Below, in pieces: positions 1,567 to 40,750 of a stretch of DNA of 60,892 nucleotides. The stretch spans positions 1-60,892 of the forward strand of contig CAYSDK010000001.1 of assembly GCA_964429865.1 (NCBI GenBank). Direction: 5' to 3'. Source of the DNA: an uncultured bacterium (GTDB taxonomy: Bacteria; Methylomirabilota; Methylomirabilia; Methylomirabilales; CSP1-5). Each line of letters starts with the position of its first letter. The stretch's first letter is position 1. The notes under the pieces were generated by a model. It saw only the letters and a list, made by a program, of their open reading frames with translations, did not search any database and was not told the origin of the DNA. Made by a program: the position numbers and the translations under genes.

Positions 1567-2847
1567 ATGGCCAAGATCAAAGGGCTGAAGTGCCGCGAGT
1601 GCGGTCGCCCGTATCCGGCCGAGCCGCTGCATGTCTGCGAATTCTGCTTTGGCCCGCTCGAAGTCGAGTACGATTACGCGAGCCTGCAGAAGACCGTCAC
1701 TCGCAAGCGGATCGAGGCCGGCCCGCCGAGCATGTGGCGGTATCGCGACCTGCTTCCCGTCGACGAGGAGCTGTCGGTGGGGAGGCACTGCGGCATGACC
1801 CCCCTGATCCGGGCGAGGAACCTCGCCGACGCCTTGGGGGCCAAGGAGGTGTACATCAAGAACGATGCGGTCTGCCATCCCACCCTCTCCTTTAAGGATC
1901 GGGTGGTGGCGGTCGCGGTGACCAAGGCGATGGAATTCGGCTTCACCGTGGTCGCCTGCGCCTCGACAGGAAACCTGGCCAACTCCGTCGCCGCCCATGC
2001 GGCCGAGGCAAGGCTGAAGAGTTTCATCTTTATCCCGGCCGACCTGGAGCAGGGCAAGATCGTCGGCACCCTGATCTATGACCCGGTGCTGGTGGCCGTG
2101 GATGGCAACTACGACGAGGTTAACCGCCTCTGCAGCGAGGTGGCCGACAAGTATGGCTGGGCCTTTGTGAATATCAACATCCGGCCGTACTACGCGGAGG
2201 GGTCCAAGAGCTTCGGCTACGAGATTGTCGAGCAGCTCGGCTGGCGCACGCCCCGACATATCGTGGTCCCCGCGGCCGGTGGGTCGCTCGTCACGAAGAT
2301 CTGGAAGGCGCTCAAGGAGTTTCACGGGTTGGGATTGATCCCGGACTGTGCAACCCGGATGCATGTGGCCCAGGCAGCGGGCAGCAGTCCCATCGCGACG
2401 GCCATTCGCAACCGGTCCGAGACCATCCGCCCGGTCCGCCCCAACACGATTTGCAAGTCGTTGGCCATCGGCAACCCGGCAGACGGATACTATGCGTACA
2501 AGGCGGTCGAGGAGAGTCGGGGCTACGCCGCGGACGCGAGCGACGAAGAGATCATTAATGGGATGACCCTCCTCGCCGCGACCGAGGGGATCTTCACCGA
2601 AACCGCCGGTGGGGTCACGGTAGCCGCCGCCAAACGGCTTCTGGAGGACGGCGTCATCCCCCGCGACGAGAGCGTCGTGCTCTCGATCACCGGAAACGGG
2701 CTCAAGACACAGGAGGTGGTGGGAGGCGTCCTCAAACCACCCCTTTCCATCAAGCCGACTCTAAAATCGTTTGACGCGGTGATCGCGGAACGGCCGGATC
2801 TCGGGGCCGATGTCGTCTCCAGGGCTTCGAACGCCCGTCGTGGATAG
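1567..2847 (+). CDS. thrC: threonine synthase family PLP enzyme with N-terminal zinc ribbon (ThrC-like; possibly a MetM-type O-phosphohomoserine-dependent homocysteine synthase)
   Basis: N-terminal CRECG...CEFCFG zinc ribbon. PLP-lysine motif HPTLSFKDR. Glycine-rich loops CASTGN and GSS. AGGAGG SD. 426 aa. Confidence 0.85.
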   Translation: MAKIKGLKCRECGRPYPAEPLHVCEFCFGPLEVEYDYASLQKTVTRKRIEAGPPSMWRYRDLLPVDEELSVGRHCGMTPLIRARNLADALGAKEVYIKNDAVCHPTLSFKDRVVAVAVTKAMEFGFTVVACASTGNLANSVAAHAAEARLKSFIFIPADLEQGKIVGTLIYDPVLVAVDGNYDEVNRLCSEVADKYGWAFVNINIRPYYAEGSKSFGYEIVEQLGWRTPRHIVVPAAGGSLVTKIWKALKEFHGLGLIPDCATRMHVAQAAGSSPIATAIRNRSETIRPVRPNTICKSLAIGNPADGYYAYKAVEESRGYAADASDEEIINGMTLLAATEGIFTETAGGVTVAAAKRLLEDGVIPRDESVVLSITGNGLKTQEVVGGVLKPPLSIKPTLKSFDAVIAERPDLGADVVSRASNARRG

Positions 2848-3203: not shown

Positions 3204-3665
3204 GCGATAGGGGTGGCTTGGTCTGGGTTTTGCAGAACGGTTGCGACGCGTGAATCAAAAAGGAAAGGGGGTGAGACAGGTGGATCGAAAGGGACACAAC
3301 CCGAAGGCGTGGTACGAGCGCGAGGAGCGTCGTGGCCTCAAGCGGTCGCAGCCCAGACGGACGCGCAAGGAGGGAGAAAAGGAGGGGAAGAAAGGCGGCG
3401 GAGGGAGAACCACCCCGGAGGAATGGTGGGAGAAAAACTCTTGACATAGCCGCTTCCCTTCCCGCATCTTTGGTGTCAGGGCGATCGAATGAGCGCTCGG
3501 TCAATCTCCCTGCAGCCTATCCTCTATTATATTATTATTATCTGATCTACCAGGGCATCTTTTTGCGGTCACGGATCTGGTCCTTGGGGGATCATGAATC
3601 ACTCAAGCGTCAAAAGAGCCCTCCCGTCGAACCGAAGGTTCCCTCGTTAAAGTAATGGATGAACA

Positions 3666-10273: not shown

Positions 10274-10322
10274 AGGACTCAGGACTGAGGGATGAGGACT
10301 GAGGGATGAGTGACCTGAGGTG
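10274..10322 (+). repeat. heptanucleotide tandem array A (7 in-phase heptads)
   Basis: The heptads are aggactc aggactg agggatg aggactg agggatg agtgacc tgaggtg. The array ends 4 nt before the ATG at 10327, and the last heptad supplies the SD-like GAGGTG. Confidence 0.85.
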
Positions 10323-10326
10323 ATAC

Positions 10327-11244
10327 ATGAGGATTGTGTCGTTATTGCCCAGCGCGACGGAGATCGTCTATCTGCTGGGACTGGGGGATCACCTCACCGG
10401 AGTGAGCCACGAGTGTGATTATCCCCGGGCGGCGCTTGGCAAGCGCAAGATCATTGCCCCTGCCTTCGAGAGCTCCGGGCTCAGCAGTCAGGAGATCGAC
10501 GGCAGTGTCCGGGCCTTCCTGGGGCGAAATGAGGGGATCTATCGGATCGATTTCGAGGCCTTGAAGGCGGCCGATCCCGACCTGATTGTGACCCAGGAGC
10601 TGTGTGATGTCTGTGCCGCCCCTTACCAGGATGTCGTGGAGGCGGCGACACACCTTTCGCGAAAACCCGAGATCCTTTCCCTGAACCCGCACCGTCTCGG
10701 GGATGTGCTCCAGGATGTCGAGCGGGTCGGGGAGGCGACGGGACGATTCCGCGAGGCAACGCAGGCTGTCGCCTCGCTCACCGAACGGATCGATCGCGTC
10801 GAGAAGCGGGCGGCCAACGCCAAGACCCGGCCACCCGTGGCGTGTCTGGAGTGGCTGGACCCGATCATGGCCTCGGGCCACTGGGTCCCAGAGATGGTGG
10901 CCCTGGCTGGCGGCAGAGAACCACTCGGAAAGGCGGGGGAGCCATCGGAACGGGTGCAGTGGGAGCGGGTCCTCTCCTGTGCACCCGAGATCCTGATCCT
11001 CATGCCCTGCGGCTTTTCCGTAGATCGGACTCTGGACGAGATCCACCTCTTGACCAATCGTCCGGGCTGGGAGGGCCTGCCGGCAGTGAGGCGGGGCAAG
11101 GTCTTTGCCGTGAACGGTCACGCCTACTTCAGCCGATCGGGACCGCGCCTGGTGGACGGAACCGAGATCTTGGCTCATCTCGTGCATCCGGAACTCTTCC
11201 GGGACCCGATTCCGGCAGGGGCAGCAACAACCGTTGACCGATGA
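10327..11244 (+). CDS. BtuF/FecB-type (periplasmic-binding-protein fold, cobalamin-binding-like) protein without a signal peptide
   Basis: It starts directly with the first strand-helix of the fold (MRIVSLLPSATEIVYLLGLGDHLTGVSHECDYP). No hydrophobic or basic leader and no lipobox. 305 aa. Confidence 0.7.
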   Translation: MRIVSLLPSATEIVYLLGLGDHLTGVSHECDYPRAALGKRKIIAPAFESSGLSSQEIDGSVRAFLGRNEGIYRIDFEALKAADPDLIVTQELCDVCAAPYQDVVEAATHLSRKPEILSLNPHRLGDVLQDVERVGEATGRFREATQAVASLTERIDRVEKRAANAKTRPPVACLEWLDPIMASGHWVPEMVALAGGREPLGKAGEPSERVQWERVLSCAPEILILMPCGFSVDRTLDEIHLLTNRPGWEGLPAVRRGKVFAVNGHAYFSRSGPRLVDGTEILAHLVHPELFRDPIPAGAATTVDR

Positions 11245-11298
11245 CCGGGGACCGATGACCGATGACGGATAACCGACGGCCGATGAACGATGACCGGG
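11236..11298 (+). repeat. heptanucleotide tandem array B (9 in-phase heptads, consensus GACCGAT)
   Basis: The heptads are gaccgat gaccggg gaccgat gaccgat gacggat aaccgac ggccgat gaacgat gaccggg. The array spans the TGA stop at 11242-11244 and the first codons of the mutase ORF. Confidence 0.85.
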
Positions 11299-20685: not shown

Positions 20686-20907
20686 ATGGCCAAGGCAGAG
20701 GGAAAGAAGGCAGAGGGAAAGAAGGTAGAGGGAAAGGTGGCGAAGTTGGCCTCGCGCGAGGTCAACGGTCAGGCTGTCCGCGTGTACCCCTGTCCCGCCG
20801 ACGGGACCAAGATGAGCTGGATCCATTACTTTGGGGAGAACGGGCGGGGGAGGATGGCCCTCCGGTGTGAGAAGTGCGGGGCCATCAAGGGACGATCCGA
20901 ACTGTAA
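20686..20907 (+). CDS. small lysine-rich repeat / zinc-ribbon-like protein (73 aa), unknown function
   Basis: It has its own promoter-like element, a strong SD (GGAGGTG) and a strong terminator. The N-terminus is MAKAEGKKAEGKKVEGKV. The C-terminal part carries CP...H...CEKCG. Confidence 0.6.
   Translation: MAKAEGKKAEGKKVEGKVAKLASREVNGQAVRVYPCPADGTKMSWIHYFGENGRGRMALRCEKCGAIKGRSEL
20695..20739 (+). repeat. 3 x 15-nt in-frame tandem repeat (gcagagggaaagaag)
   Basis: Copies at 20695-20709 and 20710-20724 are identical. The third, 20725-20739 (gtagagggaaaggtg), is diverged. Together they encode AEGKK AEGKK VEGKV. Confidence 0.9.
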
Positions 20908-32091: not shown

Positions 32092-33636
32092 ATGGCGACG
32101 CGGATTTTGATCTTTGACACCACGTTACGCGATGGAGAGCAGTCTCCTGGGTACAGCATGAATACGCGGGAGAAGCTGGAGCTGGCCCGCCAGCTGGCCC
32201 GACTGCGCGTCGATGTCATCGAGGCAGGGTTCCCTGTCGCCTCCCCGGATGACTTCGAAGCCGTCAAGGTCGTCTCCCAGAGTATTCGGGAGGGGATCAC
32301 GATTGCCGGCCTGTGCCGCACCCGGGACCAGGACATCGACCGGGCCTGGGAGGCCCTGCAGCACGCGGAGCGGCCCCGGATCCACACCTTCATCGCCACC
32401 TCGGACATCCACATGCAGTACAAGCTGAAGATGAGCCGGGAGGAAGTGATGGAGGCGGCGGTCCGGGCCGTGAGGCGGGCCCGTGGTTACACGGACGATG
32501 TGGAGTTCTCGTGTGAAGACGCCTGCCGGACGGATCCGGACTTTCTCTGTCAGATGGTCGATGCGGCCATCAAGGCCGGGGCGACGACCATCAATATTCC
32601 GGATACGGTGGGATACGCCATGCCGTGGGAGTATGGGGAGCGGATTCGCACCCTCATGAAGCGCGTCCCCAACATCGACACAGTGATCGTGAGTGCCCAC
32701 TGCCATAATGACCTGGGCCTGGCCGTTTCAAATTCTCTGGAGGGGATTCGGCAAGGGGTGCGACAGGTGGAGTGCACCATCAACGGCATCGGGGAGCGAG
32801 CGGGAAACGCCTCGCTCGAAGAGATCGTGATGACCATCCGGACCCGGCGCGACCTCTTGAATGCGGAGACCGGGGTCAACACCGAGGAGATCTACAAGAC
32901 CTCGAAGCTGCTCACCACCATCACGGGCGTTCCGGTCCAGCCGAATAAGGCCATTGTCGGCGCCAACGCCTTTGCCCATGAGGCCGGCATCCACCAGCAC
33001 GGAATGCTCTCGCACGCGCTGACGTACGAGATCATGACGCCGCAATCGGTGGGGGTGCCGCAGAGTCGCCTGGTGCTGGGCAAGCATTCGGGCCGCCACG
33101 CGCTCAAGAAGCGACTCCAGGACCTGGGGGTCGATCTCAACGAAGAGGATCTCAACCGCGCGTTCGTCCGCTTCAAGGAGCTCTGCGACAAGAAGAAGGA
33201 GGTCTTCGACGACGACCTGCTCGCCATCGTGGGAGAGCAGGTGCTGGCCATTGCCGAAACCTACGTCCTGGAGCACCTCCAGTTCGCCAGCGGGACGAAT
33301 ATGATCCCCACGGCCACGATCCGCCTGAAGAAGCAGGATGAGATCTTCCAGGAATCGGGATGGGGGGACGGCCCCGTCGATGCGACCTTCAAGGCCATCG
33401 ATCAGGTTACCGGAATCCACCCGAGGCTGAAGGAGTATAGCATCCGGGCGGTCACCTCGGGCAAGGACGCCCTGGGAGAGGTGATGGTCTCCATCGAGGT
33501 TGACGGCCAGACGGTCATCGGCCGCGGGACCTCGACGGACGTGATCGAGGCCAGCGCCAAGGCGTATCTGAACGCGATCAACCGGGTCATCGGACGCAAG
33601 GCGCCTCCCGCCAAGGAGGTGCGTCAGGGTGTCTGA
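32092..33636 (+). CDS. leuA: 2-isopropylmalate synthase
   Basis: [28 protein letters not shown], and a C-terminal LeuA dimerisation/regulatory domain. Confidence 0.95.
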
Positions 33637-33703
33637 TTCGGGCGCCACTCACGAGGGGCCCACACCTTGTCCGAGGCGGTGACATCTGCGAGAATACCAT
33701 CAT

Positions 33704-35107
33704 ATGGGTGAGACCCTGCTCGACAAAGTCTGGCGTGCCCACACCGTGCAAATGCTCCCCTCGGGACAGACGCAGCTCTTCATCGGGCTGCACCTGATCC
33801 ACGAGGTGACGAGCCCCCAGGCCTTCCAGATGCTCAGGGAGGCGGGGCTCAAGGTCCGTGTGCCGGAGCGTACATTCGCCACCATTGATCACATTGTCCC
33901 GACCGCCTCGCAGATGCGCCCCTTCGGCGACCTGTTGGCCGAGGAGATGACCGTCCACCTGGTGAGGAACTGCCAGGAGTTCGACATCCGGCTCTTCGAT
34001 CTGAACAGCGGGCGCCAAGGCATCGTCCATGTCATCGGGCCGGAGCTGGGTCTCACCCAGCCGGGAATGACCATCGCGTGCGGCGACAGCCATACCTCGA
34101 CCCACGGGGCGCTCGGGGCGCTGGCCTTCGGGATCGGGACGAGTCAGGTGCGGGACGTGCTGGCGACGCAGTGCCTGGCGATGGCCAAACCGAAGCTGCG
34201 CCAGATTCGGGTCGAGGGACTTCTCGCGCGCGGCGTCTACGCCAAGGACGTGATCCTCTCCATCATCCAACGGCTCGGTGTGAAGGGCGGCGTGGGGTAC
34301 GCCTACGAGTACGCCGGGTCGGCCGTTGAGGCCATGTCCATGGAGGAGCGCCTCACCATCTGCAACATGAGCATTGAGGGGGGTGCCCGGGCGGGCTACG
34401 TCAATCCCGACGCGACGACGTTCGGTTATCTCAAGGGACGCCCCTTTGCGCCGCAGGGAGGAGCCTTCGATCGGGCGGTGGCCTGGTGGAGGAGCATGGC
34501 GACAGAACCGGGGGCCACCTTCGACGACGTCGTCACGTTGGACGGAGGGTCGATCCAACCTGTGGTGACCTGGGGGATCAATCCCGGGCAGTCGGTGGGG
34601 GTCGGGGATCGGATCCCGAATCCGGCGGAGGCGCCGGAGACGGACCGCGCCGCCTGGACAGAGGCACTGACCTTTATGGATTTCAAGCCGGGTCAGCCGA
34701 TCGCCGGGACCCGCATCGACGTGGCCTTCATCGGCTCGTGCACGAATGCGCGCCTCTCAGACCTTCGGGCCGCCGCCCAGGTCGCCCGAGGGCGGACGGT
34801 GGCGAAGGGAGTGCGCGCACTGGTGGTCCCAGGTTCGCAGGCCGTCGCGGCGGCGGCCGAAGCCGAGGGGCTTCACGTGATCTTTCAGGAGGCGGGATTC
34901 GAGTGGCGCAAGGCGGGCTGCTCGCTCTGTCTCGGCATGAACGAAGACAAGCTGAAAGGCCGCGAGATCTGTGCCTCGTCCAGCAATCGGAACTTCAAAG
35001 GACGGCAGGGCTCTCCCACGGGGCGGACACTCCTCATGAGCCCGGCCATGGTGGCGGCGGCGTCTATCGCAGGGGAGGTCGTTGACGTGCGCGAGTTGCT
35101 CCGGTGA
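33704..35107 (+). CDS. leuC: 3-isopropylmalate dehydratase large subunit
   Basis: Aconitase-family motifs [32 protein letters not shown] and NRNFKGRQG. Confidence 0.95.
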
Positions 35108-35700
35108 GTCGCGACAGCGTTCGGCGGCAGATCGTCGGCCGCGGGATTCCCCTGCCCGGCAACGACATCGACACCGACCGAATCATCCCCGCCCGGTTCC
35201 TCAAGAGCGTCACCTTCGAGGGGCTTGAACAGCACGTCTTTGTAGACGATCGCTTGCAGGCGCCTGACCATCCCTTCAACGAGGACCGGTACCAGGGGGC
35301 ATCGATCCTCGTGGTTGGGCTCAACTTCGGGTGCGGCTCGTCCCGGGAGCACGCACCAGAGGCGCTGAAGCGCTGGGGCATCCGGGGGATCGTGGGGGGA
35401 TCGTTTGCGGAGATCTTTTTCGGGAACTCGACGGCCCTCGGCATCCCGTGTCTGACGGTGGCCCCACAGGATGTCGAGTGGTTGATGGGGGCCGTCGCGC
35501 ACCACCCCGAGCGCGAGATCGTGCTCGACGTGGAGGCCCAAGGGGTGCGCTTGGGCGACCGGACCATCCCTGCCAGGCTTCCCGACGCGGCTCGGAAGCA
35601 GCTCCTGACAGGCACGTGGACCGCCACCGCCGTCCTGCTGGAGGCAGGTGAGGAGATCGAGCGGGTAGCGAAGGGCCTCCCGTACCTCAGGGGGTACTGA
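35104..35700 (+). CDS. leuD: 3-isopropylmalate dehydratase small subunit
   Basis: [13 protein letters not shown] and [16 protein letters not shown] overlap with leuC. Confidence 0.93.
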
Positions 35701-35707
35701 CGACCGC

Positions 35708-35828
35708 GTACAGAGTGCAGAATAGTGCAGCAAGGTGCAGAGTACAGCGTGCAGGGTGCAGCGGGGTGCAGAGCACAACGTGCAGAGTAGAGCGTGCAGG
35801 GTGCACGGTGAAGGGATAGAGTAGAAAG
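35708..35828 (+). repeat. heptanucleotide tandem array C (17 heptads, core GTGCAGN/GTRCAGN, three 3-nt phase spacers)
   Basis: The layout is gtacaga gtgcaga [ata] gtgcagc [aag] gtgcaga gtacagc gtgcagg gtgcagc [ggg] gtgcaga gcacaac gtgcaga gtagagc gtgcagg gtgcacg gtgaagg gatagag tagaaag, then the ATG of asd at 35829. Confidence 0.9.
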
Positions 35829-36845
35829 ATGGGCAGAAGCGGGTATCGGGTGGCGATTGCGGGGGCAACGGGGGCGGTGGGGCAGACCATGCTCTCGATC
35901 CTCGCCGAGCGGAACTTCCCGGTGCGCAGCCTCCGACTCCTGGCCTCGGAACGGTCGGAGGGGAAGGTTCTCCACTTCAAGGGAGAAGAGGTCAAGGTCG
36001 AGCGACTGACGGAGCGCTCATTCGAGGGGATCGAGCTGGCCCTGTTCTCTGCCGGCGCCAGCCGCAGTAAGGAGTTTGCTCCGGAGGCGGTCAGGGCGGG
36101 CGCGCTGGTGGTCGACAACAGCTCCGCTTTTCGGATGGACCCCACCGTCCCCCTCGTGGTCCCTGAGATCAACCCCGAGGCGGCCCGGCGTCACAGCGGG
36201 CTGATCGCCAATCCCAATTGCACCACCGTCGTGACGGTCATGGCTTTGAAGCCGCTGCACGAGGCGGCCAAGGTCAGGCGCGTCATCGTGTCGAGCTATC
36301 AAGCGGTCTCGGGGGCGGGAGCCCAGGCGCTCGAAGAGCTCAAGCAACAGGTCCTCGCATGGGTCAAGGGGGAGCCGGCGGAATCCAAGGTCTTTCCGCA
36401 TCCGATCGCCTTTAACCTCATTCCCCAGGTGGATGTATTCGAAGCCAGCGGCTACACCCGGGAGGAGATGAAGCTCGTCCATGAGACCCGCAAGATCCTG
36501 GAAGATGAGACGATGCGCATCGCCGCGACCACGGTCCGGGTCCCCGTCTGGTACGCCCACTCGGTCTCTGTGACCGCGGAGACAGAGCGGAAGGTGACGG
36601 TGGAGGAGGCCCGAAGGCTCTTCGCCAGCTTCCCCGGCCTCAAGCTGTGGGACGATCCGGCCAACCGCCAGTACCCCATGCCCATCGTCGCCACGGGGAA
36701 GGATGAGTGTTACATCGGCCGAATCCGGGAGGATCTCTCAAGTGACAAGGGACTCACCTTCTGGGTCGTGGGGGATCAGCTCCGGAAGGGGGCGGCGCTC
36801 AACGCCATTCAGATCGCCGAGTTGGTCTTGGAGGTGAAGAGGTAG
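35829..36845 (+). CDS. asd: aspartate-semialdehyde dehydrogenase
   Basis: VAIAGATGAVGQ, active-site NPNCTT, and SYQAVSGAG. Confidence 0.95.
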   Translation: MGRSGYRVAIAGATGAVGQTMLSILAERNFPVRSLRLLASERSEGKVLHFKGEEVKVERLTERSFEGIELALFSAGASRSKEFAPEAVRAGALVVDNSSAFRMDPTVPLVVPEINPEAARRHSGLIANPNCTTVVTVMALKPLHEAAKVRRVIVSSYQAVSGAGAQALEELKQQVLAWVKGEPAESKVFPHPIAFNLIPQVDVFEASGYTREEMKLVHETRKILEDETMRIAATTVRVPVWYAHSVSVTAETERKVTVEEARRLFASFPGLKLWDDPANRQYPMPIVATGKDECYIGRIREDLSSDKGLTFWVVGDQLRKGAALNAIQIAELVLEVKR

Positions 36846-36856
36846 GTCCTCGGCTC

Positions 36857-37591
36857 GTGCAGAACCTCACGTTGACCCTGGAATATGACGGAACCGCGTA
36901 TCACGGCTGGCAAGTCCAGCCGGGGCTGCCAACCATTCAGGGGGCCCTCGAGGAGACCGTGAAGCGCATTTCAGGCGAGGCGGTCCGGGTCATCGGCGGC
37001 GGGCGGACCGACGCAGGGGTCCACGCCCTCGGCCAGGTGGCCAACTTCCGGACGAGCAAGGGTCTCGCCCTCGACACATGGCGGCGGGCCCTCAATGGCC
37101 TGCTCCCACCCGACATCGTGGTGCACCGCGTCGAACATGCGCCTGACGAGTTTGACGCCCGCCGATTCGCCACGCACAAAACCTACCGGTACTCCATCTG
37201 GAACGCCCCGTTCCCGTCTGCCCTCGAGCGACACTGTGTTCTTCAGATCCCCGATCCTTTAGACGTCGCCTCCATGGCCGAGGGGGCGACGTCCCTGATC
37301 GGCGAGCACGATTTTTCCGCTTTTCGGGCGGCCGACGTCAGCCCGCCCCACCCCGTGCGCCGCGTGGTCGAGGCGCGCTTCGCACAGGAGGCGAATCGTC
37401 TCCACTTTATCATCACGGGAAACGGCTTCCTGAAGCACATGATCCGGATCATCGTGGGGACGCTGCTCGACGTTGGCAGAGGCAAGCTCAGCCCTGAAGG
37501 CTTGGAGCGAATCTTGCAATCCAAGGACCGCCAGAGGGCCGGGCGGACGGCGCCCCCTCACGGCTTATGCCTCATAGAGGTGATGTATTAG
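36857..37591 (+). CDS. truA: tRNA pseudouridine(38-40) synthase
   Basis: [16 protein letters not shown], catalytic [11 protein letters not shown], and [16 protein letters not shown] start. Confidence 0.93.
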
Positions 37592-37861
37592 ATGGCTATC
37601 ACTGGAAATCCTCTCGCCATAGCACGGGAAATTGGAGACGGCTTTCACTCGCTGACCACGACATCCCTGAAGAGGTACACGCCCGCCGACCTGAAGACCA
37701 TCAACACCAGCCTCCAACAGGTCCTCCGAGACGCCCGGGGAGAGGCGCCCACGCCGGGCGACGCCGAGGCGATCCGAAAGAAAAACCTCCGCCTCCAGCG
37801 CCTGAATACCGCCGTTCTGACGCTCGCCAACTACTGCCGCCAACAGCGCATTCCCATCTGA
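37592..37861 (+). CDS. hypothetical protein (89 aa), start abuts the truA stop
   Basis: The ATG follows the truA TAG immediately. The composition is protein-like ([28 protein letters not shown]...). No family was recognised. It overlaps, in another frame, the non-coding 5' extension of the leuS ORF. Confidence 0.4.
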
Positions 37862-38016
37862 CGCCTCGCGCGCGCCGTGCCGCCTCAGCGAGGCGGGGTG
37901 CCGATCCGCGCTCTCCAAGCGGCTCAGGGGAGCAGTCAAGGTCGAGGGCCGGGAGTTGCGCCGACCCAATGCCTGTGCTATCTATAGGCGGAACCACCAC
38001 GGGAGAAAGAATCGGC

Positions 38017-40596
38017 ATGGCCAGATCGTACGATTTCAAGGGCGTTGAGGCCGGGGTGCAGCAGGTCTGGGAAGAGCGGAAGGCCTTCCGGGTGACGGAG
38101 GACGCCACACAGCCGAAATACTACTGCCTAGTGATGTACCCCTATCCCTCCGGGAAGATCCACATGGGGCACGTCCGCAACTACGCGATCGGAGATGTCG
38201 TGGCGCGGTACTTCCGGATGCGCGGCCACAACGTGCTCCACCCGATGGGATGGGATTCCTTCGGCCTGCCGGCAGAGAATGCGGCCATCGAACACGGGGT
38301 GCATCCGGCGACCTGGACGGTCGACAACATTACGTATATGCGGACGCAACTCAAGCGGATGGGCCTCTCCTACGACTGGGATCGCGAGATCACGTGTAGC
38401 GATCCCGAGTACTATCGGTGGAATCAATGGCTCTTTCTCAAGATGTATGAGAAGGGGCTCGCGTACAAGAGGCCGGCATTGGTCAACTGGTGCGATGTCT
38501 GCCAAACGGTCCTCGCCAACGAACAGGTGGAAGGGGGGCGGTGCTGGCGCGATGACTCGGTGGTCATCCAGAAGGAGCTGGATCAATGGTTCTTGAAGAT
38601 CACCGCCTACGCCGAGGAGCTCCTCACAGGGCTGGATCGATTGCCAGGCTGGCCCGAGCGGGTCAAGGCGATGCAGCGGAACTGGATCGGGAAGAGCGTC
38701 GGCGCCCAAGTGGACTTTCCGATGGTGAGCGGCGGCCCCCCCATCGCTATCTTCACGACCCGGCAGGACACCCTCTACGGGGCCACCTTCATGGTGCTGG
38801 CGCCGGAGCATCCACTGGCCCGGGAGCTGGCCCGCGGAAGGCCGGAGGTCGAAGGCTTCATCGAGCGGATGCGGACGGAAGACCGCCTGGTCCGGACCGC
38901 GGCCGAGAGCGAAAAGGAGGGGGTGTTTACCGGCGCCTTCGCCATCAATCCGTTGACGCAAGAGAAGATCCCCATCTGGCTCGCCAATTTCGTCCTGTTG
39001 GAATACGGGACCGGCGCCATCATGTCGGTGCCCGCGCACGACCAGCGGGATTTCGAATTCGCCAAGAAATACCACCTCCCGATCCGGCTGGTCATTAATC
39101 CAGAAGAAGGCACCCTCGTCGCCGCGGACCTGGAAAAGGCCTATGAAGGCGAGGGGCTCATGGTGAATTCGGGGCCCTTCAACGGGTTGCCCAGTGGGGA
39201 AGGGCGGGAGGCGGTCGCTCGATATCTGGAAGAGCGGAGGATTGGCAGCGGAGCGGTGAACTATCGGTTGAGGGACTGGGGGATCTCCCGGCAGCGGTAC
39301 TGGGGGACCCCCATCCCCATCATCTACTGTGACCGGTGCGGCACGGTCCCGGTTCTCGAGCGCGACCTGCCGGTCCTGCTCCCTCGGGACGTCGAGATCA
39401 CCATGAAGGGGGGGTCCCCGCTGGCCCGGGTCAAACGCTTTGTCAACGTGAGCTGTCCGACGTGTCACGGGCCGGCCCGTCGAGAGACCGATACGATGGA
39501 TACCTTTGTCGATTCCTCCTGGTACTTCCTCCGCTTCTGCAGCCCCAAGGAGGAGAACCGCCCCCTCGATCCCGCGAAGGTGGCGCACTGGATGGCAGTG
39601 GATCAGTATATCGGGGGGATCGAGCACGCGGTCCTCCACCTGCTCTACGCACGATTCTTTACGCGGGTGATGCGGGACCTAGGGTTGGTTGCGATTGACG
39701 AGCCGTTCGTGAATCTCCTCACGCAAGGCATGGTCTGCAAGGAGACCTACCGGTGCCCCACCCATGGCTACCGGCTCCCCGAAGAGGTGAATGCCAAGGG
39801 GCGGTGCACCGCGTGTGGCGAGCCGGTAGAGATAGGCCGGACCGAGAAGATGTCCAAGTCGAAGAAGAACGTCGTGGACCCGGACGACCTGATGAATCGC
39901 TATGGGACGGATACCGCCCGCGTCTTCTCGCTCTTCGCCGCGCCGCCGGAGAAGGACCTGGAATGGTCCGACAAAGGGGTCGAGGGGGCCTTCCGGTTCC
40001 TCAACCGGGTATACCGGCTGGTGGACGGATGGGCGGAGGAGCTCTGCCGTCCGGTGAAACCCGTCTCCTTCGCCGCCCTGACGGTGGGCCGGGCGCTCTA
40101 CCAGAAGGCCCACTTCACCATCAAGAAGGTGACCGAGGATCTCGACCGGAATTTTCACTTCAACACGGCCATCGCCGCGCTCATGGAGCTCGTAAACAGC
40201 CTGGGGCAATGTGATCTCGGTGGCACGCCAGAAGAACGGGAAGAAAAAAGGGCGGTGGTGCGCTTTGCGGTCGAGACCCTGCTCGTCCTCCTCGCTCCCT
40301 TTGCCCCCCACCTGGCGGAAGAGTTGTGGCAGCGCCTCAGCCATTCCCGGAGCATCTCAGAAGCATCGTGGCCTGCGTATAGCACCGAGGTGATTCAGCG
40401 AGAGGAAATCCTGGTGGTCGTCCAGGTCAATGGGAAGCTCAGAAGCCGGCTCCTGCTGCCCGCCGATGCCGAAGAGGAAGCGCTCCGGACGGCGGCGCTC
40501 CAGGACAGCCGGATCCAGACGTGGCTCGAGGGAAGACAGGTGGTCCGGGTCGTGGTGGTTCCCAAGAAACTGGTCAACATCGTGACCGACGAGTAA
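38017..40596 (+). CDS. leuS: leucine--tRNA ligase
   Basis: [14 protein letters not shown] (HIGH), KMSKSKKN (KMSKS), and the CP1 editing domain. The start is at ATG 38017 (GGGAGAAAG SD); the upstream 150 in-frame codons look non-coding. Confidence 0.96.
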
Positions 40597-40750
40597 CAGC
40601 TGTCAGCCATCCGCTGTCAGCAGTCAGCCATCAGCAGCCAGAGACGTGAGACCGGAGACGGGAGATACCAGACGATAGTCTCCGCTCTCCAGTCTCAAGT
40701 CTCCGGGCTCCGGTCTAGTCCCTGACGGCTGACGGCAGACAGCTGAAGAG
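40597..40750 (+). repeat. heptanucleotide tandem array D: 22 in-phase heptads arranged as [CAGCNNT]6 [NNGAGAC]5 [TCCNNTC]6-7 [TGACGGC]3 (a palindrome of arrays)
   Basis: The heptads are cagctgt cagccat ccgctgt cagcagt cagccat cagcagc cagagac gtgagac cggagac gggagat accagac gatagtc tccgctc tccagtc tcaagtc tccgggc tccggtc tagtccc tgacggc tgacggc agacagc tgaagag. No indel occurs over 154 nt. The right-hand blocks are reverse complements of the left-hand blocks. Confidence 0.9.

What the first reader, a model, noticed from the sequence alone, without database searches (positions are those of the whole stretch)
35701..35828. GTGCAG heptad array fills the whole leuD-asd spacer, where leuB is normally found
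The entire 128-bp spacer consists of 17 heptads (GTGCAGN/GTRCAGN) with three 3-nt phase shifts. It includes a 28-nt higher-order repeat (35735-35762 vs 35780-35807, 26/28 identical). The array degenerates into the asd SD and start (gtgaagg gatagag tagaaag ATG). In many bacteria leuB lies between leuD and asd, but it is absent here. The array might mark a rearrangement scar, an internal promoter or processing site, or a protein-binding array.
Basis: seen in the sequence. Interest (0 to 1): 0.6.

Follow-up and report, generated by a model that had tools for sequence, protein, structure and literature searches.

The report
Hypervariable GTGCAG repeat spacer between genes
The 128 bases between leuD and asd are a real, fast-changing short tandem repeat, one of several hundred that fill gene-to-gene spacers in this uncultured NC10 (Methylomirabilota) bacterium, so it is a new example of a known but unexplained kind of bacterial repeat, not a scar left by the missing leuB gene.

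Summary
The spacer 35701-35828 reads as 17 heptads plus three 3-nt inserts, with 10 GTRCAG cores on one strand. Lag-7 self-match is z=6.3 against shuffles. The 28-nt repeat is 25/28 identical, not 26/28.

The array is not locus-specific. The genome (an NC10/Methylomirabilota MAG near CSP1-5) has 295 period-7 segments, against 1-16 for periods 4, 5, 8, 10 and 11. They sit downstream of gene ends and are depleted in divergent spacers. Two earlier follow-ups of this scan reported these heptads on this same window.

New here:
- Every genus member has heptads in the leuD-asd spacer (52-156 nt). Most carry a (GGTTCAS)n/(STGAACC)n hairpin. The closest relative has one GTGCAG unit inside such an array.
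- The window's array belongs to a lineage-restricted, sense-strand family, GTRCAG plus purines (13 loci, usually 9-nt units), found in housekeeping operon spacers.
- leuA-leuB-asd is the arrangement in outgroups, but leuB left this position before the genus arose.

Most likely this is a slippage-driven repeat tolerated in a co-transcribed spacer. An RNA-level role is not excluded. No promoter, terminator or Rfam match was found.

The parts
35104..35700 (+). leuD (3-isopropylmalate dehydratase small subunit). Its last 3-4 codons (…GGG TAC TGA) co-vary with the spacer type among strains.
   Evidence: NCBIfam NF002458 1.8e-55; alignment of the leuD 3' ends
35701..35707 (+). First, non-core heptad CGACCGC directly after the leuD stop codon. 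It is shared with the CSP1-5 allele (L005/L191).
35708..35807 (+). Core array: 13 heptads (10 of them exact GTRCAG+N units) spaced 7 nt apart, or 10 nt where a 3-nt insert precedes the unit (inserts ATA 35722-24, AAG 35732-34, GGG 35763-65). The strand is purine-rich (70% purine over the whole spacer, GC skew +0.39).
35735..35762 (+). First copy of the 28-nt higher-order block GTGCAGA GTACAGC GTGCAGG GTGCAGC. This block is present once in the 68-nt CSP1-5 allele.
35780..35807 (+). Second copy of the 28-nt block (25/28 identical), 45 nt downstream of the first. This indicates a multi-unit duplication.
35794..35806 (+). Small perfect hairpin GTGCA-GGG-TGCAC. The unit GTGCAC is palindromic and, together with the next unit GGTGAAG, may be a vestige of the right (…GGTGAAC) arm seen in relatives (inference).
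   Evidence: read from sequence; comparison with alleles
35808..35828 (+). Degenerate heptads GTGAAGG GATAGAG TAGAAAG running into the asd start codon. They offer only a weak Shine-Dalgarno-like sequence. This part is conserved in the L005 and L004 alleles.
35829..36845 (+). asd (aspartate-semialdehyde dehydrogenase)
   Evidence: NCBIfam NF011456 6.5e-144
32092..35107 (+). leuA (32092-33636) and leuC (33704-35107), upstream members of the co-oriented cluster. The 67-nt leuA-leuC spacer has no heptads.
40597..40746 (.). Another array of the same genome-wide phenomenon, shown for context: an inverted pair of heptad arrays downstream of leuS.
11230..11296 (.). Another heptad array (ACCGATG x9.6), from the commonest unit family of the genome, shown for context.

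Best explanation
The leuD-asd spacer is a hypervariable short-tandem-repeat array. It is one instance of a genome-wide, order-wide habit of Methylomirabilales genomes to fill transcribed gene-to-gene spacers with period-7 repeats.

Proposed history at this site: an inverted pair of arrays, (GGTTCAS)n then (STGAACC)n, forming a hairpin, has occupied the spacer since the genus acquired the leuD-asd junction. In the lineage of this window a one-base variant of the unit (GTTCAG to GTGCAG) took over the left arm. That arm expanded by slippage or unequal recombination in blocks of 7, 10 and about 45 nt, and the right arm decayed. The result is a purine-rich direct array that no longer folds into a long hairpin.

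The array is most likely carried on a polycistronic leuA-leuCD-asd-truA-leuS transcript as a weakly structured linker between the leuD stop and the asd start. Its exact sequence and length are under little selection. The constraints on it are generic:
- It must not disrupt genes, hence a period that is not a multiple of 3 and a location outside ORFs.
- It must not sit in promoter regions.
- When unpaired, it keeps the purine-rich strand as the RNA strand.

Shown: the anatomy, genome-wide excess, location bias, strain-to-strain turnover and the one-substitution link. Inferred: slippage as the mechanism, co-transcription, near-neutrality and the order of events.
For: - Period 7 is uniquely over-represented. 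There are 295 segments, against 1, 3, 16, 7 and 3 for periods 4, 5, 8, 10 and 11, with 77 different unit families (TRF).
- The same excess appears in sampled DNA of G004, G005, G036 and G037.
- Arrays lie downstream of gene ends: ++/-- 201, convergent 28, divergent 5 against 30 expected (p=1e-8). Heptads occupy 8%, 9% and 2% of co-directional, convergent and divergent junctions respectively.
- All 13 genus genomes have the leuD-asd junction. All 18 alleles examined have heptads there, with lengths of 52-156 nt.
- Same-type alleles differ by whole units: 128 nt here, 87 nt in L004, 68 nt in L005/L191, with shared flanks.
- The strains closest in flanking DNA (L002, L003, L186; 96-98% nt) carry the GGTTCAS/STGAACC hairpin type instead.
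- L186 has one AGTGCAG unit inside a GGTTCAG array.
- Hairpin-type alleles fold with z -2.7 to -4.8. The window's array folds with z -1.15 and L005/L004 with -1.3/-1.5.
- Multi-unit duplication is visible inside the array: a 28-nt block twice, 25/28 identical.
- Runs of identical 9-nt units occur in relatives, for example five GTACAGAAG in a row in G010. Copy numbers of 3, 6 and 11 are seen at one orthologous site.
- No promoter-like or terminator-like site, no Rfam family at E<=1, and only repeat-derived mini-ORFs.
- Literature: heptamer SSRs are over-represented in intergenic DNA of many bacteria, vary in length between close strains at conserved positions, occur as inverted pairs, and were proposed to reflect polymerase slippage (PMC4692102).
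Against: - Plain slippage does not explain why only period 7 is favoured. It also does not explain why the GTRCAG family mostly has 9-nt units.
- The GTRCAG family is strictly sense-oriented in all 11 contexts with nameable flanking genes.
- Its core positions 1, 2, 4, 5 and 6 are 92-97% invariant over 149 units, while positions 3 and 7-9 toggle A/G.
- The family is kept at orthologous sites in several genomes. These three features suggest selection on the motif.
- Arm order within hairpin families is fixed (11:0, 5:0). Independent seeding by slippage does not predict this.
- Co-transcription and the absence of RNA ends are assumed, not measured.
Confidence: 0.6

Rival explanations
1. RNA-level cis element. 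On the polycistronic mRNA, the GURCAG-purine array would be a multi-site platform for a single-strand RNA-binding factor (S1-, Csp- or KH-type) or a ribosome standby / anti-polarity linker. It would tune translation of the downstream gene (here asd) or protect the spacer from Rho loading or decay.
For: - The GTRCAG strand is the sense strand in all 11 G000 contexts with nameable genes, including tRNA-Met, rpsN>rpsH, murB>ftsQ, purD>purE, xerC>hslV and leuD>asd.
- In the relatives, 9 arrays have a high-GC3 gene ending just upstream on the GTRCAG strand, and none has such a gene only on the opposite strand (read at GC3>=0.78).
- L111 shows two convergent genes, each followed by its own sense-oriented array.
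- The core is conserved while the filler varies but stays 89% purine.
- The family is retained at orthologous sites.
- Rho is encoded in the genome.
Against: - The flanking genes share no functional theme.
- Copy number varies 3-11 at one site, and the family can be swapped for unrelated heptads (leuD-asd; G004:C16 vs G000:C28) without apparent consequence.
- The G>C sense bias of unpaired heptad arrays (40:21) equals the background of all co-directional spacers (284:163), so it is not array-specific.
- CsrA and Hfq were not found.
- The conservation measure has ascertainment bias, because arrays were chosen by the motif.
Confidence: 0.2
2. DNA-level protein-binding array: tandem oriented sites for a regulator or nucleoid-associated protein, or an internal promoter/UP-like element for asd.
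For: - Direct repeats of a conserved hexamer at about 9-10 bp spacing in most family members resemble, from memory, the head-to-tail site arrays of OmpR/PhoB-type regulators.
- Arrays lie upstream of a gene in most cases.
Against: - No promoter-like hexamers.
- Heptad arrays avoid divergent promoter regions.
- One GTRCAG array fills a convergent spacer with no downstream gene (C5) and one follows a tRNA.
- The flanking genes form no plausible regulon.
- In this particular array the spacing is mostly 7 nt, which puts successive sites on different faces of the helix.
- The array is replaced by unrelated repeats in the closest strains.
Confidence: 0.07
3. Rearrangement scar: the repeats were generated by, or mark, the event that removed leuB and joined leuD to asd.
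For: The junction is derived. Outgroups have leuA-leuB-asd-truA, and only this genus has leuA-leuC-leuD-asd. leuB sits alone elsewhere in this genome.
Against: - Sister families already lack leuB at this site (leuA-asd, 42-100 nt plain spacers without heptads). So leuB loss preceded the leuCD insertion and left no array.
- Hundreds of arrays lie at junctions with conserved synteny, for example rpsN-rpsH, murB-ftsQ and purD-purE.
- The array family at this junction has turned over since the junction formed.
Confidence: 0.03
4. Assembly artefact: the array, or its length, is produced or distorted by short-read assembly of a repeat.
For: - This 128-nt allele was not found in any other assembly sampled.
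- Reads could not be inspected.
- Tandem repeats near read length can be mis-assembled.
Against: - Independent MAGs and metagenome contigs carry arrays of the same family with identical flanks at the same junction: L005/L191 at 68 nt and L004 at 87 nt.
- The array lies in the middle of an 86-kb contig.
- The units are heterogeneous, not a perfect repeat, which makes collapse or expansion by an assembler less likely.
Confidence: 0.05

Closest known systems
Over-represented intergenic heptameric simple sequence repeats of bacteria (Mrazek et al. 2007 as cited in Rehm et al. 2015, PMC4692102; GGGAATC in Xanthomonas, GGGGA(T/C)T in Nostoc)
   Same: Tandem 7-nt units confined to intergenic DNA. Period 7 alone is over-represented. 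Some arrays occur as inverted pairs able to form stem-loops. They keep the same position between close strains but vary widely in length and sequence. Function is unknown, with polymerase slippage proposed.
   Different: The units here are not G-tract or quadruplex-forming. A single genome uses 77 unit families rather than one dominant unit. The host is the NC10/Methylomirabilota lineage, for which two full-text searches found no paper describing such repeats. This particular array mixes 7- and 10-nt spacing.
TAACTGA direct repeats of marine Beggiatoaceae, some Cyanobacteria and Bacteroidetes (MacGregor 2015, PMC4679880)
   Same: A family of short direct repeats that is intergenic and oriented 'forward' relative to genes. 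It has no functional theme among the flanking genes, and strains differ by indels in unit increments. A post-transcriptional role (S1, Csp, Csr) has been proposed but not shown.
   Different: TAACTGA sets are short (2-6 copies), end within a few nt of the start codon and replace the SD. GTRCAG arrays start 3-17 nt after the upstream stop codon, have 3-11 units, a purine filler of variable length (modal unit 9 nt) and a different core.
Cyanobacterial STRR heptanucleotides (Calothrix PCC 7601; Mazel et al. 1990, cited as ref. 39 in PMC4692102; details from memory)
   Same: Several different tandem heptanucleotide families dispersed in the non-coding DNA of one genome.
   Different: Different phylum and unit sequences. 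STRR are defined by specific cyanobacterial units. Hairpin pairing of arrays is not part of their description.
REP/BIME extragenic palindromes of enterobacteria and their RAYT transposases (from memory)
   Same: Works like these in location. The hairpin-type alleles of this spacer are transcribed intercistronic or 3' palindromes that avoid promoters, as REPs do.
   Different: There is no conserved ~35-bp consensus, and the arms are built from tandem heptads with heterogeneous loops and no shared termini. No Y1/RAYT transposase was found in the MAG. The window's own array is not palindromic.
MIRU-type intercistronic tandem repeats
   Same: Tandem repeats inside operons, oriented with transcription, with variable copy number between strains.
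   Different: MIRU units are 40-100 bp and rebuild stop/start overlaps or encode mini-ORFs. Here the units are 7-10 nt with no coding logic.

Membership tests
Bacterial intergenic heptamer SSR (Mrazek/Rehm sense) | Head-to-tail repeats with a 7-nt unit, several copies | tested here: met
   17 heptads. Lag-7 self-match is 0.57 vs 0.29+/-0.04 in shuffles. TRF period 7, 11.9 copies.
Bacterial intergenic heptamer SSR (Mrazek/Rehm sense) | Located in non-coding DNA | tested here: met
   The array fills the leuD stop to asd start spacer. Only repeat-derived ORFs of 21-34 aa are present.
Bacterial intergenic heptamer SSR (Mrazek/Rehm sense) | Genome-wide over-representation of period 7 relative to neighbouring periods | tested here: met
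   295 segments at lag 7, against 53 (lag 6), 16 (lag 8), 7 (lag 10) and 3 (lag 11).
Bacterial intergenic heptamer SSR (Mrazek/Rehm sense) | Length and sequence polymorphism between close strains at a conserved position | tested here: met
   128, 87 and 68 nt for the same type. The hairpin type occurs in the closest strains. All alleles lie between leuD and asd.
G-quadruplex-forming heptamer repeats (GGGAATC type) | Four or more G3+ tracts separated by short loops | tested here: not met
   The G3 tracts at 35753-55, 35763-66 (a G4 run), 35799-801 and 35813-15 are separated by loops of up to about 32 nt (read).
TAACTGA-type oriented intergenic direct repeats | Consistent orientation relative to flanking genes | tested here: met
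   The GTRCAG strand is the sense strand in 11 of 11 nameable contexts in G000. One further array is convergent and one is undetermined.
TAACTGA-type oriented intergenic direct repeats | Unit TAACTGA ending within a few nt of the start codon | tested here: not met
   The core is GTRCAG. Arrays begin just after the upstream stop and end 14-83 nt before the next start in most loci.
REP / RAYT system | Imperfect palindrome able to form a stable stem-loop | tested here: not met
   The window spacer folds with z=-1.15. The feature is met only by the hairpin-type alleles of relatives (z -2.7 to -4.8).
REP / RAYT system | Cognate Y1 (IS200/IS605-like) transposase gene in the genome | tested here: not met
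   PF01797 gives no match in the 93.5%-complete MAG. Incompleteness leaves some doubt.
Intrinsic terminator | GC-rich hairpin followed by a U-tract | tested here: not met
   0 sites in 35000-36500.
Sigma-70-type promoter | -35/-10 hexamers at 16-18 nt spacing | tested here: not met
   0 sites in 35000-36500. Other promoter types are not covered by the scan.
Known structured RNA (riboswitch, leader, sRNA) | Match to an Rfam covariance model | tested here: not met
   No match at E<=1 in 35400-36100 on either strand.
CsrB/RsmZ-like protein-sponge repeats | Repeated GGA motifs and a CsrA protein in the genome | tested here: not met
   Only one GGA in the array, at 35813-15. PF02599 was not found.

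The most novel reading that the evidence does not exclude
The GURCAG+purine arrays would be a lineage-specific, sense-strand RNA signal. There are 13 loci in this genome, in the spacers of core operons such as rpsN-rpsH, murB-ftsQ, purD-purE and leuD-asd. In this reading, an as yet unidentified multimeric single-strand RNA-binding factor reads them in register and sets the relative expression or stability of downstream cistrons. The period-7 hairpin arrays would be the structured counterpart of the same system. Repeat copy number would then act as a fast-evolving, heritable dial on operon stoichiometry.
Probability: 0.15. Interest if true: 0.6.

Novelty: new member of a known kind. Interest (0 to 1): 0.3.

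Why it matters
Intergenic heptamer repeats have been known in bacteria since 1990 (cyanobacterial STRR) and were shown to be over-represented in 2007, yet neither their origin (why 7?) nor any function has been established.

This locus offers a well-resolved natural series at a single orthologous spacer:
- a hairpin array;
- a hairpin array with one mutant unit;
- a direct array of the mutant unit at three different lengths.

The series shows how such arrays are born, switch type and lose pairing within about 2-4% flanking divergence. It also adds a whole order of uncultured nitrite/methane-cycling bacteria (NC10) to the repeat-rich taxa. And it defines a strand-specific 9-nt family that could be used to test RNA-level hypotheses.

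For genome annotation the practical lessons are that these spacers are not scars, promoters or small genes. Their lengths are also useful strain markers in metagenomes.

Tried and rejected
- Promoter/terminator scan: nothing found.
- Rfam at a permissive threshold: nothing found.
- Leader peptide or small ORF: only repeat-derived GTG ORFs of 21-34 aa. Rejected.
- Long RNA hairpin in the window's array: not better than shuffles. Rejected for this allele, although true for most orthologous alleles.
- General G>C or purine bias of unpaired heptad arrays as evidence for Rho avoidance: the bias equals that of all co-directional spacers, so it gives no specific support.
- CsrA-sponge, Hfq and REP/RAYT ideas: the proteins were not found.
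- Mobile-element idea for the GTTCA/TGAAC hairpins: no shared termini, flanks or loops.
- Automatic strand test on relatives by ORF length/GC3: noisy because of spurious antisense ORFs at 63% GC. Usable only with a stricter GC3 cut-off.
- Context of the C76 array: no Pfam hits for any flanking ORF. Left undetermined.
- Literature search for repeats in Methylomirabilis: nothing relevant.

Full report
**1. The observation**

The spacer between the leuD stop (TGA, 35698-35700) and the asd start (ATG, 35829) reads CGACCGC GTACAGA GTGCAGA [ATA] GTGCAGC [AAG] GTGCAGA GTACAGC GTGCAGG GTGCAGC [GGG] GTGCAGA GCACAAC GTGCAGA GTAGAGC GTGCAGG GTGCACG GTGAAGG GATAGAG TAGAAAG.

- The flanking genes are leuD and asd. 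The cluster is leuA-leuC-leuD-[array]-asd-truA-leuS.
- The + strand holds 10 GTRCAG cores and the - strand holds none. The expectation is 0.033 GTGCAG per 128 nt.
- Lag-7 self-match is 0.57 against 0.29+/-0.04 in dinucleotide shuffles, z=6.3. TRF calls the array too.
- The 28-nt higher-order repeat is 25/28 identical, not 26/28.

**2. A genome-wide and order-wide phenomenon**

The window is contig C1 of a 1.82-Mb, 116-contig, 63% GC genome. Its nearest named relatives are Candidatus Methylomirabilota / NC10 MAGs such as CSP1-5.

- TRF finds 312 period-7 arrays among 1157 calls, and 143 of the roughly 200 arrays with four or more copies.
- A motif-free lag test gives 295 period-7 segments. Periods 4, 5, 8, 10, 11 and 13 give 1, 3, 16, 7, 3 and 2. 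The segments fall into 77 canonical unit families, with ACCGATG and GTTCA[C/G/T]N the largest.
- The segments lie between co-directional genes (201) or convergent genes (28). Only 5 lie between divergent genes, against 30 expected (p=1e-8).
- Heptads occupy about 8%, 9% and 2% of co-directional, convergent and divergent junctions.
- Two-thirds of the co-directional segments have an inverted partner array nearby, so they form hairpins made of heptads.
- The same period-7 excess is seen in sampled DNA of a close relative (G004), a distant congener (G005) and two other families of the order. One of these is G036, a 2,752,854-bp single contig. From memory that is the size of the Ca. Methylomirabilis oxyfera genome. 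It has 40 segments in 400 kb and none at periods 4, 5, 8, 10 or 11.
- No period-7 segments were found in the Rokuibacteriota loci sampled.
- Two earlier follow-ups of this scan reached the same general conclusion for other arrays on this window. I re-derived it independently here.

**3. The orthologous spacer in relatives**

leuD and asd are adjacent in all 13 genomes of the genus, but not in the other families of the order. I read 18 alleles of the spacer from genomes and metagenome contigs. All contain heptads, and lengths run from 52 to 156 nt.

- Most alleles are an inverted pair, (GGTTCAS)n on the left and (STGAACC)n on the right, often around an AT-rich loop. They fold far better than shuffles (z -2.7 to -4.8).
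- Only three alleles are direct GTRCAG arrays: the window (128 nt), CSP1-5 (L005 = L191, 68 nt) and PMV_4.88 (L004, 87 nt). They share both flanks and differ by whole units. None folds significantly (z -1.15, -1.28, -1.51).
- The strains closest to the window in flanking DNA (L002, L003, L186; 96-98% nt identity over 2 kb upstream and 1 kb downstream) carry the hairpin type. The spacer type co-varies only with the last 3-4 codons of leuD. So the spacer block has a history different from its flanks, through recombination or repeated conversion.
- L186, the closest relative by Asd (98%), has GGTTCAG GGTTCAT GGTTCAG AGTGCAG GGTTCAG GGTTGAG / AACCCTGAAC TCTGAAC. That is a single GTGCAG unit inside a GTTCAG hairpin array. 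GTTCAG and GTGCAG differ by one base, and that change breaks pairing with CTGAAC.
- The window's 3' end (GGTGCAC GGTGAAG) looks like a remnant of the right arm (GGTGAAC). This is inference.

**4. The GTRCAG family**

Searching the genome for clustered GTRCAG found 13 loci. Apart from the finding, their units are GTRCAG plus 2-5 purines. The modal spacing is 9 nt (35 of 63 spacings), then 10 nt (12). Filler, counted over all 13 loci, is 89% purine. The finding is the only member with 7-nt spacing, so it is a hybrid between the heptad habit and this family.

- Where flanking genes can be named, the GTRCAG strand is always the sense strand, and the array begins 3-17 nt after an upstream stop codon. 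The contexts are leuD>asd, rpsN>rpsH, murB>ftsQ, purD>purE, xerC>hslV, >recO, a MoeB-like gene >yeeE-like, a U32 peptidase > a Zn-ribbon gene (two arrays), >oppD-like, and directly after tRNA-Met.
- One array fills a convergent spacer and one context is undetermined.
- There is no functional theme among the flanking genes.
- Three arrays are followed by (NNTGAAC)n heptads, like a hairpin whose left arm has been converted.
- The family occurs in 8 of 13 genomes of the genus and essentially nowhere else among 40 relatives. A reversed-pattern control gave none in the genus and only five scattered hits in four genomes of other families.
- It is kept at orthologous sites in G004, G006 and G010 with different copy numbers, for example 3, 6 and 11 units at one site. 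At one further site it is swapped for unrelated GACCTCG heptads.
- Cutting 149 units by phase alone, positions 1, 2, 4, 5 and 6 are 92-97% invariant, while positions 3 and 7-9 toggle A/G. This suggests constraint on the core, although the arrays were chosen by the motif.
- Arrays fold only weakly, through the self-complementary UGCA/GUAC cores.

**5. The leuB question**

- leuB is intact on contig C5, next to a yjbQ-family gene.
- Outgroups (Rokuibacteriota, other Methylomirabilota, Nitrospirota, Omnitrophota) have leuA-leuB-asd-truA, or leuCD-leuB-asd.
- Sister families of the order have leuA-asd-truA-leuS with short, heptad-free spacers.
- Only this genus has leuA-leuC-leuD-asd.

But leuB left this position before the leuD-asd junction existed, and the array is not a relic of that event.

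**6. Other readings tested**

- No sigma-70-like promoter or intrinsic terminator in 35000-36500.
- No Rfam match.
- No credible small ORF.
- No G-quadruplex geometry.
- Rho is encoded. CsrA, Hfq and Y1/RAYT transposases were not found in the 93.5%-complete MAG.
- The G>C bias of unpaired heptad arrays on the sense strand (40:21) matches that of all co-directional spacers (284:163). It therefore gives no specific support to a Rho-avoidance model.
- The GTTCA/TGAAC hairpins share no termini, flanks or loops, which argues against a REP/MITE-like mobile unit.
- Within each family the arm order is fixed (GTTCA…TGAAC 11:0, ACCGATG 5:0). This remains unexplained.

**7. Mechanism and comparison with known systems**

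The best-supported account is a slippage- and recombination-driven simple-sequence array in a transcribed intercistronic spacer. It is descended from a hairpin-forming heptad pair and evolves nearly neutrally in length and sequence.

This matches what is described for intergenic heptamer SSRs in Xanthomonas and Nostoc: over-representation of period 7 only, inverted pairs, conserved position with variable length, and a slippage hypothesis (PMC4692102). It also matches the oriented TAACTGA repeats of Beggiatoaceae, where strains differ by 7-nt indels and a post-transcriptional role is proposed but unproven (PMC4679880).

The strict sense orientation, conserved core and site retention of the GTRCAG family keep an RNA-level function alive as the main rival (about 0.2).

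Neither of the two full-text searches run returned a paper describing such repeats in NC10. I therefore class this as a new member of a known kind.

**8. Limits**

- No reads or RNA-seq could be examined. Co-transcription, the absence of processing and the exact copy number are therefore inferred.
- Gene calls for the genome-wide statistics are crude, being longest ORFs filtered by GC3.
- Gene names in section 4 other than those were assigned by eye from the translations.

Noticed in passing
G000 contigs: C2:33431-33460, C5:6519-6551, C7:12806-12853, C9:7248-7298, C44:10228-10298 and 10597-10639, C48:6151-6234, C50:10638-10697(-), C54:8351-8378 and 1668-1714(-), C64:270-315, C76:898-948(-): A dispersed, sense-strand repeat family of GTRCAG plus 2-5 purines (modal unit 9 nt) lies in the intercistronic spacers of housekeeping operons (rpsN-rpsH, murB-ftsQ, purD-purE, xerC-hslV and others). 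It is restricted to part of the genus and had not been recorded by the scan before.
   Followed up: partly
G000 genome-wide, e.g. C1:80575-80647, C12:11177-11243, C26:19718-19808: Within each hairpin-forming heptad family the arm order is fixed (GTTCA…TGAAC 11:0, ACCGATG-first 5:0, several families 2:0). The elements share no flanks, termini or loops. An inverted repeat equals its own reverse complement, so transcription direction cannot explain this.
   Followed up: partly
L003:3867-4000, L187, L007/L189, L090, L092 (leuD-asd spacers of relatives); G000:C12:11517-11602: The longer hairpin-type spacers enclose AT-rich loops of 30-90 nt. These often contain a small inner stem and a T-run just 5' of the right arm, so they may be nested terminator-like or other elements.
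   Followed up: no
L004:3341-3910 (leuD of MAG PMV_4.88): The last ~400 nt of leuD drop to 64-81% nucleotide identity to the window, while leuC and asd stay at 90-97%. This suggests a recombination or replacement tract ending at the repeat spacer.
   Followed up: no
window 37567-38028: The longest leuS ORF starts 25 nt inside truA, but the LeuS family profile only begins at residue 155. In more distant relatives (L006, L007) this ~400-nt stretch is not conserved at the protein level. It may be a leader or an over-called start rather than an N-terminal extension.
   Followed up: no
G037:C5:1-200000 (another family of the order): Besides period 7 (16 segments), this genome shows an excess of period-8 segments (19 in 200 kb). 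The other genomes sampled have 0-5, apart from the window's own whole genome, which has 16 in 1.82 Mb.
   Followed up: no
window 3367-3395, 10281-10320 and 20692-20736: Further purine-rich tandem repeats with longer units: AAGGAGGGAAAA x2.3, AGGACTGAGGGATG x2.7, and AAGGCAGAGGGAAAG x3 at 96% match. They may belong to the same tendency toward purine-rich sense-strand spacer repeats.
   Followed up: no
G004:C16:53368-53396 vs G000:C28:16958-17017: A second orthologous spacer where a GTGCAG array in one strain corresponds to an unrelated heptad family (GACCTCG / GTCCTCG) in the other. Type switching is therefore not peculiar to leuD-asd.
   Followed up: partly
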